A stretch of 64,000 nucleotides of DNA, taken from an uncultured Candidatus Saccharibacteria bacterium. GTDB taxonomy: Bacteria > Patescibacteriota > Saccharimonadia > Saccharimonadales > UBA4665. Of this stretch, positions 23,604 through 29,532 are shown piece after piece. A program made the position numbers and the translations under genes. The first letter of the stretch is position 1; the number at the start of each line of letters is the position of its first letter. The DNA is taken from NCBI GenBank assembly GCA_964610985.1, contig CAZSZJ010000003.1, forward strand, positions 143-64,142, written 5' to 3'. The notes beneath the pieces were generated by a model, which saw only the letters and a list, made by a program, of their open reading frames with translations, had not been told where the DNA came from and made no database searches.

Positions 23604-23924
23604 CTAAATATCAAGAAAGACGGTGACGCGGTCGGCTTTGACGTGCATGAGTCCGCCGGAAATACGAATTGTTTCGTCACGCCTGGGTGAGCGGATGATG
23701 AGTTCGCATGGCGACAAAAGCGTCATAAAGTTGTGATGGCGAGGCAAAATATCAAATGGGCCCGTCGCATTAACGGCAGAGATACTTTCTCCGACTTCGT
23801 CAAAATAGACCTTGAACGGCGAATAGACCTTGATGTGCATGATCGGTGTCGTGCTGGCCGCCTGCGCCTGTTTCTGTTTGGCATCTTCGAGTATCTTGGC
23901 TGATTCAGTCTTTTCTTCGATCAT
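23604..23924 (-). CDS. atpC: F-type ATP synthase subunit epsilon (short, beta-sandwich only)
   Basis: 106 aa. ATGA overlap with the atpD stop and last position of the atp block. [30 protein letters not shown] resembles the epsilon N-terminal domain. No C-terminal helical hairpin. Confidence 0.7.
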
Positions 23925-25225
23925 ACAATGATTTCTTCGACACCCTTCAGCATATCGTCGCGCTTCACAAATTCACCCTTTCGGCCATTTAACTCTTCCA
24001 TGACAAACATGTCCTGCGAGAAGTAGTTGATAAGTTTCTTGGCTTTGGCGTAGTCGGCGCGGTCGGTTGGCGAAAGTTCATTTTCACCGATGATGGCGAT
24101 GATCGGTTTGAGTTGTTCGTATTTTTGCAACAGCGCCTGCACCTGTACGCTCAGCAAATAGTGCCGTTCGCCTACAATCTCTGGGGTGAGCAACGAAGAT
24201 GTGGTATGCAGCAGGTCAACAGCCGGACGAATGCCCTGCTCTGCTACCGCACGGCTAAGGATAATCACCGAGTCCAATTCGTGCTGGATGGTTTGCACGG
24301 CCGGATCGCTTACGTCATCAGCTGGCACATAAATCGTCTGCACTGCCGTAATCGAACCTTTGTCATTGGACGTCAATCGGTCCTGCAATGTCTTAACATC
24401 CGAGAAAATCGTCGGTTCATAGCCACCTTCGGAGGGCACTTGTCCGAGCATGGTCGCCACCTCGTTTTTGGCCTGGATGTAGCGGTACATGTTGTCGGCA
24501 AAAAACAGAATGTCTTTGTGTTGTTCGTCACGGAAATATTCAGCCAGAGTAACGGACGAGAAACCAATCAGCGAACGCCGTACCGGATTTTCGTTCATCT
24601 GGGCAAAGAACATGCAAGTGTTTTTGAGCAGGTCGCGCTCTTGCAGCGTTTCATACAGCTCGTGACCTTCGCGGATGCGTTCACCGATTCCAGTAAAGAA
24701 GCTGAGTCCAGTGCCGCTCATGGCGATGTTGTGGATCATCTCCATGGTGAGCACGGTCTTGCCCACACCGGCTCCGCCGACGATACCGATCTTGCGCCCC
24801 TTCACAAACGGCGCGAAGAAGTCCATAACTTTAATGCCTGTTTCGAGGATCTCTGGCGCGACCGCACCAAACCCTTCAGTTGCGGGGGGCGGTTGGAAAA
24901 TATTACGTTTACCGCCGCCAGCATCTACCACGGGTTCTTTACCGTCGAGCGGCATGCCGGTCGCGTCGATCACGCGGCCTATCAGTTCATCGCCAACCGG
25001 AATCTCAATAGAGTGGCCGGTGCGCTTAACACGCATACCTTTTTGTAGGCGACGATCAGAATTAATATTCAAGCAGACTGCTTGGTTACCAGGTTGCAAG
25101 CTATCAACGAGTAATGGCGTGTCGAGTTCTTCGACCATCACCACTTCATGAATGTCGGGAAAATCTTCGTCAAAAACAACGATAATTACCAAATCTCTAA
25201 CCGATCGAATTACACCGTGGTTCAT
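23921..25225 (-). CDS. atpD: F-type ATP synthase subunit beta (divergent, 434 aa)
   Basis: Walker [14 protein letters not shown], Walker [11 protein letters not shown], and DVSDPA (DELSEED-region neighbourhood). N-terminal beta-barrel present. Confidence 0.9.
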
Positions 25226-26076
25226 GCCACCCTCGTTTTACGTAAACCATTAATCATTTCTTTGAGCCGTTCGTCCTGCGTGCGCCGCTTGGTACGGTTA
25301 TACAGCATAGACAGGCTATCATGCAGCTGGTTAGCACGGTCTTTTGCCATGCTCATAGCACGGAAACGACTGGCGTATTGGGCTAACTTGGATTCCAAAA
25401 TGACCTGACTGAGCGCAATCTGCATCATTGAACGCTCCAAATGCGCTACCACTTCAAATGTTGATGGCTCAAAGATGTAGTTGCGTTCGCTAATAATCTC
25501 TTCTTCTTTACCGGTTACGCCCTTAGCCTCTTCTTGGACAGCATTAAACAGGTCAATCTTCTTAACGTCCTGCACCATCAACGACACATATGTCTGGTAG
25601 TACACCACCGTGTCTTTGTAACCCCGCGCCTCTTTGATGAGCGGCAGCACGTTGATGTTGCGGTCTTTGCTGGGGAGCGTAAAGTACTTTTTGAACGACA
25701 CACCCGCCTGAATCAGCTGAATCGCACCGTGGTGACCGATCACGATAATATCCTGTTTTTCGGGATTAAAATCGACGAGCATGGTTTTGATGAGCTTTTG
25801 GTCGATGTCGCCGCTAAACCCACCTTCGGAAGTAATGACGATGAATAGTTGCTTGTCGATAATCTTTTCGGACTCGGTACGACCATAGTGGAATAATTTG
25901 TCTACCCGTAGCTGACTGTAAATATTCCACAGTTCGCTAAAGAACTGCTGCGATTGCTGCACCTGGCTTTTGGTCTGCGAAATGCGCATGCTGGCAATAC
26001 CCTCGAACACACTCGTCAGGTTGACGATGGTATCCATAGCGACGCGTTGCGCGGCAACTTCTTGGAGACGGCTCAT
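25222..26076 (-). CDS. atpG: F-type ATP synthase subunit gamma
   Basis: 284 aa. Positioned between alpha and beta with 4-nt overlaps. N- and C-terminal long helices (C-terminal [24 protein letters not shown] resembles the gamma C-terminal YNRARQAAIT-type motif). Confidence 0.8.
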
Positions 26077-28057: not shown

Positions 28058-28664
28058 TAACGATATCCTCCAGGATAGCCTTTTTGTTGGCCTCCAGCTC
28101 GCCCAAAATGTATTCCAGTTGGTCATTGAGGTCGATCTGGTTGCCGATAGCCGCAAGCACATAGTGGTTGACAACGTCGGCCATATTTTGGTCAAAACGC
28201 TGGACGCGGCGCGCTTTTTCGTCGCTCACTTCTTTTTCGAGCTGAGCGGTCAGGGTGTGACGCTGCTCATCGATGGTTGCTTTGGTTTTTTCGATGGATT
28301 CGACGGCCAGCTGTTTGGCATCGGTAATAGCACTTTCGTAGTTCGAAAAGGCTTCTTTCAGATCCTTGCTGATCTGATCTTTCATGTATTCGTTAAGCTC
28401 TGAGGTCGTCAGGCGCAAATCTTGCTGCAAAAACATGGCGTTTTCGCCCAAGATCTTTTCGAAATGCAGGCGGCCACGGTTACGCAGTTCTTCACGGAAT
28501 TCTTCATTAAAGATATGCTCGACGTCTTTTTCGGCTTCGGCCTGAAAATCTTCGATCGATTTTGTGGACACACCGACACGGCTCAGACGAACCGCAACAT
28601 ATATAAACGCCAGCCCGCCGGCCCATATCACACTCAGGATGAGTATTAACCACCAAATTGTCAT
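28047..28664 (-). CDS. atpF: F-type ATP synthase subunit b-like (one TM + long coiled coil)
   Basis: The ORF-track start at 28676 is GTG. ATG at 28664 lies 6 nt after AAAGGTGGAG. MTIWWLILILSVIWAGGLAFIYVAV is a TM helix, followed by about 180 aa of charged helical sequence. It sits directly upstream of delta. Confidence 0.7.
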   Translation of the reverse strand: MTIWWLILILSVIWAGGLAFIYVAVRLSRVGVSTKSIEDFQAEAEKDVEHIFNEEFREELRNRGRLHFEKILGENAMFLQQDLRLTTSELNEYMKDQISKDLKEAFSNYESAITDAKQLAVESIEKTKATIDEQRHTLTAQLEKEVSDEKARRVQRFDQNMADVVNHYVLAAIGNQIDLNDQLEYILGELEANKKAILEDIVNGA

Positions 28665-28692
28665 CCCACGCTCCACCTTTTTATCACAAGCA

Positions 28693-29532
28693 TTATATCC
28701 TTAGTAATAAATATACCCCAATCCCGCCAATAACAAAAACGATTAATGCCATTAATGTAACTTGGAGGAGATTGCGAAAGATCGTCTTTTTGGCCAAGGG
28801 GTTACGGCCGACTGCGGTCATGCCAGTACGCACGCCTGCGAACAAGATAACACCCGCTACAATCACACTCAGCAGCGCCACCGCCGTCCCGGCATAAATG
28901 CGAAAGGCGCTCACTGGCTGGTCGGTTACCACCTCAGCCAGTTTTGCCAACACTTCAGGCACGCCCGCTGGCGCGTCTTTTTGGTATTTGGGATTATGTG
29001 CCACCGAAATCTCGATGCCGATCCGTCCTAAGTTCACCTGCTGGTTACCAGTACTGGTTTTGAGTACGGTTGTGCCCTCGGTCATGGACTTGCCATCAAA
29101 GGCGTCGAGCGCTTTGCCAAGCACAAACTCTTGGTCGCCGTCAGCCTTCATACCTACACCAGCCACAGACGAAACAGAAATATAGTCACCAATGTTAACC
29201 GCTCCGTTTTGCGTGCTGACGAGCACATCAAACTTCCCCGAATTGGCTACAAAAACCTCCTCGGCAGCTTCGGTATTGGAAAGTGACACGCCGGATTCGG
29301 CCGAAGAAACGACTACGCCCAAAACATCGCCGTCGTCGGCTTGCTGTGCGGCCCGTACTTTGCTGCCATCGCCCGGCTTGAGCCGCACGATCATGCCTTT
29401 TTGCAGGGCGTCGTCGGATTGGTAGCCTTGTGTTATCTTTTGGGCCAACACTTGTCCAGAGCAGAACATAGTAAAGGCGGCCAAGCTCAGAATCAGCAAA
29501 AACCGCTTTATAACACGCTTATACTTAACCAT
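28693..29532 (-). CDS. secreted domain fused to a C-terminal two-helix membrane hairpin with a c-subunit-like GRNP loop; function unknown
   Basis: Signal peptide FLLILSLAAFTMFCSGQVLA, then a soluble domain of about 190 aa. The C-terminus is FRIYAGTAVALLSVIVAGVILFAGVRTGMTAVGRNPLAKKTIFRNLLQVTLMALIVFVIGGIGVYLLLRI. It occupies the slot 16 nt upstream of atpF. Confidence 0.6.
   Translation of the reverse strand: MVKYKRVIKRFLLILSLAAFTMFCSGQVLAQKITQGYQSDDALQKGMIVRLKPGDGSKVRAAQQADDGDVLGVVVSSAESGVSLSNTEAAEEVFVANSGKFDVLVSTQNGAVNIGDYISVSSVAGVGMKADGDQEFVLGKALDAFDGKSMTEGTTVLKTSTGNQQVNLGRIGIEISVAHNPKYQKDAPAGVPEVLAKLAEVVTDQPVSAFRIYAGTAVALLSVIVAGVILFAGVRTGMTAVGRNPLAKKTIFRNLLQVTLMALIVFVIGGIGVYLLLRI

What the first reader, a model, noticed from the sequence alone, without database searches (positions are those of the whole stretch)
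23604..29532. F-type ATP synthase block lacks a and c subunit genes; the atpE slot holds a secreted protein with a c-subunit-like hairpin lacking the carboxylate
Seen in sequence: the order on the minus strand is [279-aa gene]-atpF-atpH-atpA-atpG-atpD-atpC, with overlaps or gaps of 16 nt or less. The NifS-like gene ends 5 nt upstream of the 279-aa gene. No ORF in the whole 64-kb window looks like subunit a (multi-TM with the conserved Arg helix) or a free 70-90-aa c subunit. The 279-aa product has a signal peptide, a soluble domain of about 190 aa, and then two TM helices joined by VRTGMTAVGRNPLAKK. Established knowledge: c subunits have helix 1, a (S)RT..G(I/V)(A/G)R(Q/N)P(E) loop, and helix 2 with an essential Glu/Asp about 20 residues after the Arg. 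Here the loop and spacing fit, but the equivalent position is Leu/Ala (LLQVTLMALIVFVIGG), so there is no ion-binding carboxylate. Alpha (475 aa, P-loop GDGKSGKST), beta (434 aa) and epsilon (106 aa, no helical hairpin) are also short and divergent. Inference: either atpB and atpE sit elsewhere and the resemblance is coincidental, or this lineage has remodelled the membrane sector or stator environment of its ATPase.
Basis: partly seen in the sequence, partly recalled or inferred. Interest (0 to 1): 0.62.

Follow-up and report, generated by a model that had tools for sequence, protein, structure and literature searches.

The report
Saccharibacterial F1 ATPase lacking proton channel
A seven-gene operon conserved across soil and host-associated Saccharibacteria encodes a full F1 ATPase head, shaft and stator stalk, but in place of proton-channel subunits a and c it has a secreted protein whose two-helix membrane anchor keeps only the F1-docking loop of subunit c, so the machine probably burns ATP to do something at the cell surface rather than pump protons or make ATP.

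Summary
On the minus strand, 23604-29532, lie [279-aa protein]-b-delta-alpha-gamma-beta-epsilon. The last five junctions overlap by 4 or 11 nt. No a or c gene is in the 64-kb window.

The organism is a Saccharibacterium (Saccharimonadales). The 279-aa family ("X279") is large: 511 clusters at E<1e-30 and at least 319 GTDB species. In all 65 loci that hold a complete cluster the order is the same, and no canonical c gene lies within 10 kb.

X279 has a cleavable signal peptide, an ectodomain with a phage capsid-decoration fold, and a C-terminal hairpin (AlphaFold pLDDT 93.5). In the PDB the hairpin's only confident structural matches are F-type c subunits (TM 0.90, rmsd 1.1 Å). Among 144 members down to 27% identity, the only invariant residues are R243-N244-P245, in register with the c-subunit R-Q/N-P loop. 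The carboxylate position is Leu. Sequence homology to c is weak (hhalign P 0.002, probability 14%; Pfam ATP-synt_C 0 of 39).

Best reading: an ATP-hydrolysing "F1-X0" machine that moves no ions, analogous to but independent of the mycoplasma Type 2/3 F1-like ATPases. I could not test whether canonical atpB and atpE sit elsewhere in this genome. One paper reports related MAGs with "only the F1 subunit".

The parts
29443..29532 (-). X279 residues 1-30: Sec-type signal peptide (basic n-region, hydrophobic core, VLA|Q cleavage site)
   Evidence: A30 and Q31 are invariant in 28 homologs. AlphaFold predicts helix 2-24. That it is cleaved is inference.
28957..29442 (-). X279 residues 31-192: extracellular beta-rich domain with a phage capsid-decoration (cement) protein-like fold
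   Evidence: AlphaFold pLDDT 90-98 with the 144-sequence alignment. Foldseek PDB: Borrelia phage BB1, cyanophage Pam3, Sf11 and TW1 decoration proteins, E 4e-5 to 4e-4, probability 1.0. BFVD best E 9e-8. Pfam PF23982 E 1.9e-4, below its cut-off, and only 1 of 28 members hit it.
28696..28926 (-). X279 residues 203-279: two-helix transmembrane hairpin with N-out, loop-in, C-out topology, shaped like a c subunit
   Evidence: Helices 209-243 and 245-278. Foldseek: Chloroflexus c subunit TMt 0.90, rmsd 1.1 Å over 67 columns, with c subunits the only high-probability hits to this part. Five basic residues in the loop place it in the cytoplasm by the positive-inside rule (inference).
28789..28809 (-). 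Codons for G242-R243-N244-P245-L246-A247-K248, the cytoplasmic loop motif
   Evidence: R243, N244 and P245 are the only invariant columns among 144 family members down to 27% identity. hhalign and hmmsearch align them with c-subunit R41-Q42-P43 in E. coli numbering.
28744..28746 (-). Codon of Leu263, the position equivalent to the ion-binding Asp/Glu of subunit c
   Evidence: Aligns with E62 of A. woodii c2 and D61 of E. coli c. Leu in 90 of 100 close homologs, the rest Met, Ile or Val.
28047..28664 (-). b-like peripheral-stalk subunit (205 aa from ATG 28664; the longest ORF starts at GTG 28676): one N-terminal TM helix and a long helical arm
   Evidence: NCBIfam F0F1 subunit B hits in 14 of 35 family members (best 1.6e-4), and alt-F0 B in 11 of 35. 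Unusually conserved, with 52 invariant columns.
27497..28057 (-). delta (OSCP)-like subunit, 186 aa, overlapping b by 11 nt
   Evidence: NCBIfam F0F1 delta hits in 30 of 35 family members, best 6e-7. Pfam OSCP E 0.024.
26073..27500 (-). alpha subunit, 475 aa, P-loop GDGKSGKST
   Evidence: Pfam ATP-synt_ab 6e-67. NCBIfam atpA 397 bits, below the 554 cut-off. 316 bits to Caldalkalibacillus alpha; the N-terminus is about 11 residues shorter.
25222..26076 (-). gamma subunit, 284 aa
   Evidence: Pfam ATP-synt 1.5e-30 over the full length.
23921..25225 (-). beta subunit, 434 aa, Walker A GGAGVGKT, lacking about 28 C-terminal residues
   Evidence: Pfam 8e-64. NCBIfam atpD 436 bits, below the 463 cut-off. 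360-372 bits to canonical bacterial beta against 277 bits to M. mobile G1 beta.
23604..23924 (-). epsilon subunit, 106 aa: a 28-residue charged N-terminal extension plus the beta-sandwich; no C-terminal inhibitory helices
   Evidence: Pfam ATP-synt_DE_N 1.5e-13 on residues 29-104. Aligns to residues 3-79 of 139-aa epsilon chains.

Best explanation
This is a divergent rotary-type ATPase operon of Saccharibacteria. It keeps a catalytically competent F1 head (alpha3beta3), a central shaft (gamma, epsilon) and a peripheral stalk (b, delta). It has lost the ion path of Fo: there is no subunit a and no carboxylate-bearing subunit c.

In the atpE slot it encodes X279. This is a secreted protein anchored by a c-subunit-like hairpin whose cytoplasmic R-N-P loop is the docking site for the gamma/epsilon foot.

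Proposed working:
- X279 oligomerises through its hairpins into a c-ring-like membrane assembly that carries a collar of phage-decoration-like domains on the outside of the cell.
- F1 hydrolyses ATP. Epsilon lacks its inhibitory helices, so hydrolysis is not braked.
- The torque or conformational change passes through the X279 assembly to the cell surface instead of driving ion translocation.

Shown here: the gene content, the conserved operon, the fold, topology and loop motif of X279, the absence of the carboxylate, and intact catalytic motifs.

Inferred: the physical contact between X279 and F1, ring formation, hydrolysis-only operation, and any mechanical output.
For: 1. The operon is conserved. 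X279-b-delta-alpha-gamma-beta-epsilon is found in all 65 complete loci of 86 (1.4 Mb). The rest are cut by contig ends. Gaps are 32 nt (median), then -11, -4, -4, -4, -4. The same order holds in a distant family representative.
2. The family is large and uniform in architecture: 543 proteins, 511 clusters at E<1e-30, and at least 319 GTDB species, almost all labelled Saccharibacteria or Saccharimonadales.
3. R243-N244-P245 are the only invariant residues in 144 members. By established knowledge, R41-Q42-P43 of E. coli c is the polar loop that binds gamma/epsilon, and mutations there uncouple F1 from Fo.
4. In the high-confidence model (pLDDT 93.5) the hairpin superposes on c subunits (TMt 0.81-0.90, rmsd 1.1-1.6 Å). 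c subunits are the only hits with probability of 0.98 or more to that part.
5. The c-subunit profile picks X279 out of the background. It accounts for 11 of the 12 hits with E<1 among 8,703 Saccharibacterial ORFs. It is the sole PDB hit of the hairpin profile (4bem_A, in register). The hhalign score is 20.8, against shuffles of mean 10.8, sd 2.1, with 0 of 300 reaching it.
6. The topology (N-out, loop-in, C-out) equals that of subunit c, so an N-terminal exported domain is compatible with it.
7. There is no ion site. Leu sits at the carboxylate position, and the one semi-conserved polar TM2 residue (Q257) varies among Q, E, K, R and S.
8. No conserved polytopic membrane protein lies near the operon in 86 loci, and none in the window except a heliorhodopsin.
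9. The F1 catalytic motifs are intact, and epsilon has no inhibitory C-terminal domain.
10. Literature. [quoted passage not shown] Mycoplasma Type 2/3 F1-like X0 ATPases also have a subunit with a signal peptide, an ectodomain and two C-terminal TM helices, and they act on surface machinery (PMC12994834, PMC3369863).
Against: - Sequence homology of the hairpin to c subunits is not established. hhalign probability is only 14%, Pfam ATP-synt_C hits 0 of 39, the NCBIfam c model hits 9 of 39, and another unrelated model hits 20 of 39.
- Any tight helical hairpin will superpose on subunit c.
- TM1 lacks the GxGxGxG packing motif.
- A 160-residue ectodomain per hairpin cannot stack directly above a c-ring of normal pitch. 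It would have to splay into a much wider collar (my steric inference).
- Without subunit a, nothing in the membrane is known to hold the b stalk against the ring, so productive rotation needs an unknown partner.
- The b-like subunit is unusually conserved. It might bind the X279 loops itself, which would argue for a static complex.
- There is no expression data.
- No complete genome could be searched. Canonical a and c may exist elsewhere, since other Saccharibacteria have them.
Confidence: 0.5

Rival explanations
1. Split operon. The enzyme is an ordinary, merely divergent, F1Fo ATP synthase whose atpB and atpE (perhaps with atpI) lie elsewhere in the genome. X279 is an unrelated or accessory surface protein that happens to be co-transcribed, and the R-N-P loop is coincidence.
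For: Only 64 kb of this genome is available, and at most 10 kb either side in relatives. Cultivated and rhodopsin-bearing Saccharibacteria have complete canonical operons. Sequence similarity of the hairpin to c is statistically weak. The whole neighbourhood (MetRS-TatD-NifS-...) is syntenic, so adjacency alone could reflect low rearrangement.
Against: X279 sits exactly in the atpE slot, 7-40 nt before b in nearly all loci, across sequence divergence down to about 27%. Its cytoplasmic loop is the only invariant feature, which is odd for a surface protein with no cytoplasmic partner. Alpha, beta, delta and b are all atypical: below equivalog cut-offs, truncated termini, and a hyper-conserved b. 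KEGG-based surveys that readily find a and c in other CPR genomes report F1-only Saccharimonadia.
Confidence: 0.2
2. X279 is a real subunit but not a rotor ring. It acts as a membrane anchor, a second stator or a regulator that tethers an F1-like ATPase to the envelope. This role has been suggested for Protein 5 of the mycoplasma complexes. The complex works by non-rotary conformational coupling or simply as a regulated ATPase.
For: The architecture matches mycoplasma Protein 5 (MMCAP2_0577, MMOB1650), for which a stalk role was proposed. The bulky ectodomain and the lack of a GxGxGxG motif argue against a tight c-ring. Decoration-protein folds usually trimerise (established knowledge). The strongly conserved b-like arm could bind the X279 loops.
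Against: A dedicated b/delta stalk is already present, so a second stator is not obviously needed. The invariant loop is the motif that in c subunits contacts the rotor foot, not the stator. Gamma and epsilon are retained at full length, which implies that something is there for them to turn.
Confidence: 0.2
3. A decaying remnant: an ATP synthase operon that is losing function in a fermentative epibiont, with X279 an unrelated insertion.
For: In the cultivated Saccharibacterium Southlakia, every ATP synthase component is dispensable (PMC10633639).
Against: There are no frameshifts or stops. Catalytic residues are intact. All seven genes, with translational coupling, are conserved in at least 319 species. 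Such conservation is not compatible with neutral decay.
Confidence: 0.05

Closest known systems
Canonical bacterial F1Fo ATP synthase operon (atpI-B-E-F-H-A-G-D-C)
   Same: The gene order F-H-A-G-D-C is the same. Alpha, beta, gamma, epsilon, delta and b are homologous. Beta and alpha are closer to canonical bacterial F1 than to any atypical form (360-372 and 316 bits). X279 occupies the atpE position, with the same hairpin topology and an R-N-P loop.
   Different: There is no subunit a and no free c subunit of 70-90 aa. There is no ion-binding carboxylate. X279 carries a signal peptide and a 160-residue ectodomain. Alpha lacks about 11 N-terminal residues, beta lacks about 28 C-terminal residues, and epsilon lacks the inhibitory helices. 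The b subunit is unusually conserved.
Mycoplasma Type 3 'F1-like X0' ATPase (MIB-MIP associated) and Type 2 G1-ATPase (gliding motor of M. mobile)
   Same: An extra or atypical F1 (alpha, beta, gamma, epsilon) without a or c. [quoted passage not shown] It is found in genome-reduced, host-dependent monoderms and is thought to pass ATP energy to surface machinery (PMC12994834, PMC3369863).
   Different: The gene order differs (1-2-gamma-epsilon-5-alpha-beta there). The mycoplasma clusters have a 12-TM protein and a small cytoplasmic protein, and no b or delta. Here b and delta are present and no polytopic protein is. X279 has no detectable sequence similarity to the mycoplasma proteins. NCBIfam MSC_0618, MSC_0619 and MMOB1660/1670 scores fall below their cut-offs and below the canonical models. 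This looks like an independent origin.
F-type c subunit (Pfam ATP-synt_C), including carboxylate-less hairpins such as half of A. woodii c1
   Same: Helical hairpin with N-out, C-out topology. R-(Q/N)-P polar loop in register. Structural superposition at 1.1-1.6 Å.
   Different: The Pfam model does not match. There is no Asp or Glu in TM2 in any copy, whereas known carboxylate-less hairpins sit in rings that also hold active ones. There is no GxGxGxG motif in TM1. X279 has a large N-terminal exported domain.
Phage capsid decoration (cement) proteins (Borrelia BB1, cyanophage Pam3, Sf11, TW1; lambda gpD / DUF2190-like)
   Same: The fold of the X279 ectodomain (Foldseek probability 1.0).
   Different: There is no capsid context. 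Sequence similarity is marginal (PF23982 E 1.9e-4, 1 of 28 members). Here the domain is fused to a membrane hairpin inside an ATPase operon.
Flagellar / type III export ATPase complex (FliH-FliI-FliJ docking on the FlhA ring)
   Same: A precedent for an F1-related ATPase with b/delta-like and gamma-like partners that docks on a membrane ring that is not a c-ring.
   Different: FliI is a homohexamer. Here alpha and beta are true F1-type paralogs, epsilon is present, and there are no export-gate genes.

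Membership tests
F1Fo ATP synthase (ion-translocating F-type) | alpha3beta3 catalytic head with P-loops, catalytic Glu and Arg finger | tested here: met
   Pfam ATP-synt_ab 6e-67 and 8e-64. Motifs are conserved in alignments to solved F1 structures. Both score below the NCBIfam equivalog cut-offs.
F1Fo ATP synthase (ion-translocating F-type) | gamma and epsilon central stalk | tested here: met
   Gamma hits at 1.5e-30 over the full length. Epsilon has the beta-sandwich only, with no C-terminal helices.
F1Fo ATP synthase (ion-translocating F-type) | b and delta peripheral stalk | tested here: met
   Divergent, but supported family-wide: delta in 30 of 35 members, b in 14 of 35 plus 11 of 35 alt-F0 B.
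F1Fo ATP synthase (ion-translocating F-type) | Subunit a (PF00119) with the conserved Arg | tested here: not met
   Absent from the window. No conserved polytopic protein lies within 10 kb in 86 loci. The rest of the genome could not be tested with these tools.
F1Fo ATP synthase (ion-translocating F-type) | Subunit c with a membrane-embedded Asp or Glu | tested here: not met
   No canonical c is present in the window or in 1.4 Mb of related loci. The X279 hairpin has Leu, Met, Ile or Val at that position.
c-subunit family (Pfam PF00137 ATP-synt_C) | Match to the family profile | tested here: not met
   PF00137 hits 0 of 39 hairpins even at E<=10. NCBIfam NF005521 hits 9 of 39, best 3.4e-4, far below its cut-off.
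c-subunit family (Pfam PF00137 ATP-synt_C) | Hairpin fold with an R-Q/N-P polar loop facing F1 | tested here: met
   AlphaFold hairpin; Foldseek TMt up to 0.90 to c subunits. R-N-P is invariant and aligned in register. That the loop faces F1 is inferred from the positive-inside rule.
c-subunit family (Pfam PF00137 ATP-synt_C) | Statistically supported remote homology (profile against profile) | tested here: inconclusive
   hhalign probability 14%, P 0.002. The score exceeds all 300 column shuffles, z about 4.6.
c-subunit family (Pfam PF00137 ATP-synt_C) | Homo-oligomeric ring under gamma/epsilon | not testable with these tools
Mycoplasma Type 2/3 F1-like X0 ATPase | Seven-gene cluster 1(12 TM)-2-gamma-epsilon-5-alpha-beta, without b or delta | tested here: not met
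   The order here is X279-b-delta-alpha-gamma-beta-epsilon, with no 12-TM protein and with b and delta present.
Mycoplasma Type 2/3 F1-like X0 ATPase | Membership of the MSC_0618/0619 or MMOB1660/1670 alpha and beta families | tested here: not met
   Scores are 380, 249, 324 and 332 bits, against cut-offs of 570, 520, 600 and 850. All are lower than the scores to the canonical atpD and atpA models.
Mycoplasma Type 2/3 F1-like X0 ATPase | A subunit with a signal peptide, an ectodomain and two C-terminal TM helices | tested here: met
   The architecture of X279 matches the description of MMCAP2_0577 and MMOB1650. No sequence similarity was detected.
Phage head-decoration protein fold (DUF2190 / gpD-like / XM1 gp53) | Structural match of the ectodomain | tested here: met
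   Foldseek E 4e-5 (PDB) and 9e-8 (BFVD), probability 1.0, using a model with pLDDT above 90.
Phage head-decoration protein fold (DUF2190 / gpD-like / XM1 gp53) | Sequence-profile match above threshold | tested here: not met
   PF23982 scores 21.7 bits, below its 27-bit cut-off, and only 1 of 28 members hit it.

The most novel reading that the evidence does not exclude
X279 forms the rotor ring of a rotary ATPase that no longer moves ions. ATP hydrolysis in the cytoplasm would spin, or torque, a collar of phage-decoration-like domains on the outer face of the membrane. That would make it a transmembrane rotary actuator. It would have been invented independently of the mycoplasma F1-like X0 motors by converting atpE and discarding atpB. 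It would be used by ultrasmall epibiotic Saccharibacteria for a surface task such as motility, handling of surface proteins or cell wall, or interaction with the host cell.
Probability: 0.3. Interest if true: 0.9.

Novelty: new variant of a known kind. Interest (0 to 1): 0.7.

Why it matters
- Metabolic reconstruction. CPR/Patescibacteria reconstructions routinely read alpha, beta, gamma and epsilon genes as an 'F-type ATP synthase' and build proton-motive-force arguments on them. In at least 319 Saccharibacterial species this operon has no recognisable ion path, so those inferences would be wrong for this group.
- A second, independent case. After the mycoplasmas, this would be another instance of the F1 motor being re-used with a non-Fo membrane partner, again in a genome-reduced, host-dependent monoderm. 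It would show that 'F1-like X0' machines are a recurrent solution rather than a mycoplasma oddity.
- A clue to what couples to what. Unlike the mycoplasma systems, this one keeps b, delta and a c-like hairpin with the F1-docking loop. That makes the question of what F1 turns when there is no proton channel directly testable.
- An explanation for a published oddity: the 'F1-only' Saccharimonadia MAGs.

Tried and rejected
- Finding canonical atpB and atpE in the same genomes. The tools give only 10 kb either side of a gene. I tried to obtain a canonical Saccharibacterial ATP synthase seed from IMG/VR contigs. A canonical alpha fragment and a canonical/window alpha alignment found nothing. Paper supplements held no sequences. 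The question stays open.
- Multimer modelling.
- Expression. No RNA run holds the locus. Only soil and rhizosphere DNA metagenomes do.
- A hidden a or c in the window. The 71-aa two-TM ORF at 55417-55632 followed by the 260-aa polytopic ORF at 54617-55399 looked like a c/a pair. They are DUF378 and a heliorhodopsin.
- Pentameric ligand-gated channel resemblance. Full-length Foldseek hits to Cys-loop receptors have probability 0.03-0.14 and rmsd near 20 Å. Rejected.
- Membership of the mycoplasma families or of the N-ATPase. NCBIfam scores are below the cut-offs and below those of the canonical models.
- The sigma-70-like site at 29569-29541, just upstream of X279, is a 9-of-12 consensus match of no demonstrated significance.
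- The first AlphaFold model, built from 28 sequences, had only pLDDT 74. It was replaced by the 144-sequence model with pLDDT 93.5.

Full report
**What is in the sequence**

The minus strand between 23604 and 29532 carries seven tightly packed ORFs. Pfam and NCBIfam identify four of them clearly:
- alpha, 26073-27500, ATP-synt_ab 6e-67
- gamma, 25222-26076, 1.5e-30
- beta, 23921-25225, 8e-64
- epsilon, 23604-23924, N-terminal beta-sandwich, 1.5e-13

The two genes upstream of alpha are weak matches to delta and b when scanned alone. I collected orthologs from 35 related loci and scanned each one. Thirty of 35 delta-like proteins hit F0F1 delta models (best 6e-7). Fourteen of 35 b-like proteins hit F0F1 subunit B (best 1.6e-4), and 11 more hit the alternate F0 B model. 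So a peripheral stalk is encoded.

The likely true starts are ATG 28664 for b (205 aa, behind GGTGGAG) and ATG 28057 for delta (186 aa, overlapping b by 11 nt, as in relatives). The delta/alpha, alpha/gamma, gamma/beta and beta/epsilon junctions are 4-nt overlaps. The first gene (28693-29532, 279 aa, here called X279) begins 5 nt after a NifS-like aminotransferase gene.

**No a or c in the window**

A c-subunit HMM was built from eleven classical c subunits. Run against all 455 six-frame ORFs of at least 40 aa, its best hit is X279 itself at E 0.1, and nothing else. TM-rich ORFs were scanned against Pfam, and none is subunit a or c. The only polytopic protein is a heliorhodopsin.

**Who carries it, and how constant it is**

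X279 has 543 homologs in the 90%-clustered protein collection, nearly all 260-300 aa. Those with a name are labelled Candidatus Saccharimonadales or Patescibacteria. A profile search of the 50%-clustered library finds 511 clusters at E<1e-30 and 1,404 at E<1e-10. A pattern scan of one genome per GTDB species finds relatives in at least 319 species. The 80 best are almost all Saccharibacteria or Saccharimonadales MAGs from soil, water, bioreactors and a dolphin mouth.

In 86 fetched loci (1.4 Mb), every locus with enough downstream sequence has X279-b-delta-alpha-gamma-beta-epsilon. Sixty-five are complete and the rest are cut by contig ends. The median X279-to-b gap is 32 nt. The same order holds in a distant family representative. 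No canonical c gene and no conserved polytopic membrane protein lies within 10 kb of any of them.

**Anatomy of X279**

With a 144-sequence alignment, AlphaFold gives a confident model (mean pLDDT 93.5, pTM 0.75). Its parts are:
- a signal-peptide helix (2-24) followed by the invariant A30|Q31
- a beta-rich domain (about 34-179)
- a short helix (193-202)
- a long helical hairpin (209-243 and 245-278)

Five basic residues sit in the connecting loop, against one on each outer end. This places the loop in the cytoplasm, so the topology is N-out, loop-in, C-out, as in subunit c (inference from the positive-inside rule).

Foldseek matches the ectodomain to phage capsid decoration or cement proteins: Borrelia BB1, cyanophage Pam3, Sf11 and TW1, with E 4e-5 to 4e-4 and probability 1.0. 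Against predicted viral structures the best E is 9e-8. The sequence signal for this link is marginal (PF23982 below its cut-off, 1 of 28 members).

For the hairpin, the only matches with probability of 0.98 or more are F-type c subunits. Chloroflexus gives TMt 0.90 and rmsd 1.1 Å over 67 columns. Yarrowia, bovine, M. tuberculosis, chloroplast and T. brucei c subunits also match.

**Is the hairpin a c subunit?**

For:
- In the 144-member alignment, which reaches down to 27% identity, the only invariant columns of the whole protein are R243, N244 and P245.
- hmmsearch of the hairpin profile against the PDB returns a single sequence at E<=10. It is the A. woodii c2 subunit, aligned GRNP to GRQP, which places c2 Glu62 on Leu263.
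- hhalign of the hairpin family against the c-subunit alignment aligns R243-N-P with E. coli R41-Q42-P43 and Leu263 with Asp61.
- Its score of 20.8 exceeds all 300 whole-column shuffles and all 300 within-segment shuffles (mean 10.8-11.1, sd 2.1, maximum 19.4).
- Among 8,703 ORFs from related loci, 11 of the 12 c-HMM hits with E<1 are X279 proteins.

Against:
- hhalign probability is only 14% (P 0.002).
- Pfam ATP-synt_C matches none of 39 hairpins.
- The NCBIfam c model matches 9 of 39, while an unrelated hypothetical-protein model matches 20.
- TM1 lacks the GxGxGxG motif.

My reading: the fold, the topology, the gene position and the one motif that matters for binding F1 are all c-like. Common descent from atpE is plausible but not demonstrated.

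**No ion site**

The carboxylate-equivalent position is Leu in 90 of 100 close homologs, and otherwise Met, Ile or Val. The only semi-conserved polar residue inside TM2, Q257, is replaced by E, K, R, S or T in distant members. It lies near the cytoplasmic end of the helix. That is not the behaviour of an ion-binding residue.

**The F1 part is functional-looking but atypical**

Beta keeps [12 protein letters not shown], the DNxxRxxQA motif and VPADD. Alpha keeps its P-loop and the SVSRVGG arginine. Both are closer to canonical bacterial F1 than to the mycoplasma G1-ATPase: beta scores 360-372 bits against 277. Both nevertheless fall below the NCBIfam equivalog cut-offs.

Alpha is about 11 residues short at the N-terminus, which is where delta binds in canonical enzymes. 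Beta lacks about 28 C-terminal residues. Epsilon lacks the C-terminal helices that inhibit hydrolysis in bacterial enzymes, and instead has a 28-residue charged N-terminal extension.

The b-like subunit is as conserved as gamma and alpha. Its phmmer score ratio is 0.65, against 0.67 and 0.70, and it has 52 invariant columns. This is unusual for a b subunit and unexplained.

**Literature**

- Chiriac et al. [quoted passage not shown] This is most simply explained by this operon.
- Canonical operons do exist in the class. Southlakia epibionticum has atpZ-A-c(70 aa)-B-delta-alpha(511 aa)..., all dispensable (PMC10633639). Rhodopsin-bearing Saccharibacteria have complete clusters with H+-type c subunits (PMC9296517).
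- The closest functional precedent is the mycoplasma Type 2/3 'F1-like X0' ATPases. [quoted passage not shown] They include a subunit with a signal peptide, a surface domain and two C-terminal TM helices. One powers gliding, and the other is required for the MIB-MIP antibody-cleavage system (PMC12994834).
- The present cluster differs in gene order, keeps b and delta, lacks the 12-TM protein, and shows no sequence relation in the X0 parts. It is therefore an independent invention.
- I found no paper describing X279 or this operon as such.

**Most likely mechanism**

Steps marked 'shown' rest on the results above. The others are inference.
- Shown: a conserved, translationally coupled operon for F1, a stalk and X279; a c-like hairpin with an invariant cytoplasmic R-N-P; no carboxylate; no a subunit nearby.
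- Inferred: X279 hairpins assemble into a ring-like platform that the gamma/epsilon foot grips through the R-N-P loops.
- Inferred: the enzyme runs only as an ATPase.
- Inferred: the output is mechanical (rotation or a power stroke) and is delivered to the extracellular collar of decoration-like domains.

The weak points are stated in the Against line. They are the steric load of the ectodomain, the lack of a known membrane stator partner for b, and the untested rest of the genome. I give this 0.5. The split-operon rival and the static-anchor rival each get 0.2.

**Verdict**

This is a real, strongly conserved and apparently undescribed variant of the F-type ATPase operon. It is a new variant of a known kind (atypical F1 machines with a non-Fo membrane sector). 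Interest 0.7.

Noticed in passing
window 54617-55399 (-), with 55417-55632 (-) and 55714-58092 (-): A heliorhodopsin gene (Pfam PF18761, E 4e-91). It lies downstream of a DUF378 two-TM protein and a phosphoketolase (XFP). Heliorhodopsins are known to be common in Saccharimonadia (PMC9166423). Together with the F1-only operon, this organism has a rhodopsin that does not pump and an ATPase with no ion path.
   Followed up: partly
window 22002-23078 (+); L001 17582-18664 (-): A roughly 350-aa type II membrane protein lies next to epsilon on the opposite strand in 61 of the related loci. It has an acidic, Ser-rich cytoplasmic N-terminus, one TM helix and a repetitive beta-helix-like ectodomain (weak Bactofilin hit, E 0.007). 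It could be a surface partner of the ATPase, or simply conserved synteny.
   Followed up: partly
window 13462-21970 (-): A run of paralogous secreted or anchored proteins of about 260-430 aa, rich in Thr, Ser, Gly and Asn. One has a WxL-interacting-protein peptidoglycan-binding domain (17658-18701, E 3e-5) and one has Ig/PKD-like hits. The family recurs downstream of the ATPase operon in 59 related loci. It resembles the WxL-type cell-surface gene clusters of Firmicutes.
   Followed up: partly
window 28047-28664 (-), b-like residues about 47-130: The membrane-proximal arm of the b-like subunit is almost invariant across 35 species (VEHIFNxEFREELRNRGRLHFEKIxGENAMFLQQDLRLTT...). Canonical b subunits are among the least conserved ATP synthase subunits. 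Unexplained; it may mark a new interaction, for example with the X279 loops.
   Followed up: partly
window 23841-23924 (-), epsilon residues 1-28: Epsilon carries a charged, probably helical N-terminal extension ([24 protein letters not shown]) while lacking the usual C-terminal helices. Relatives keep a similar total length (94-109 aa).
   Followed up: no
L016 (DATLCF010000001.1) and L039 (DATIJU010000017.1): Two GTDB MAGs labelled 'Nevskiaceae bacterium' and 'Bacillota bacterium' carry the typical Saccharibacterial X279 locus: the complete seven-gene cluster in L016, and a shorter contig matching X279 in L039. One contig is 562,602 bp. These are probably mislabelled or mis-binned records.
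   Followed up: no
L001 (ENA ERZ27251421 k141_1442520): A relative of X279 with 62% identity sits on a single 1.70-Mb contig. That is large for a Saccharibacterium, whose genomes are usually about 1 Mb or less. It is either an unusually large genome or a chimeric assembly.
   Followed up: no
window 29541-29569 (-): A sigma-70-like site (TGGCCA-17-TATACT) lies inside the 3' end of the NifS-like gene. Its -10 hexamer ends 9 nt before the X279 start codon, which has no Shine-Dalgarno sequence. This may point to a short-leader or leaderless transcript for the ATPase operon, but it is only a consensus match.
   Followed up: no
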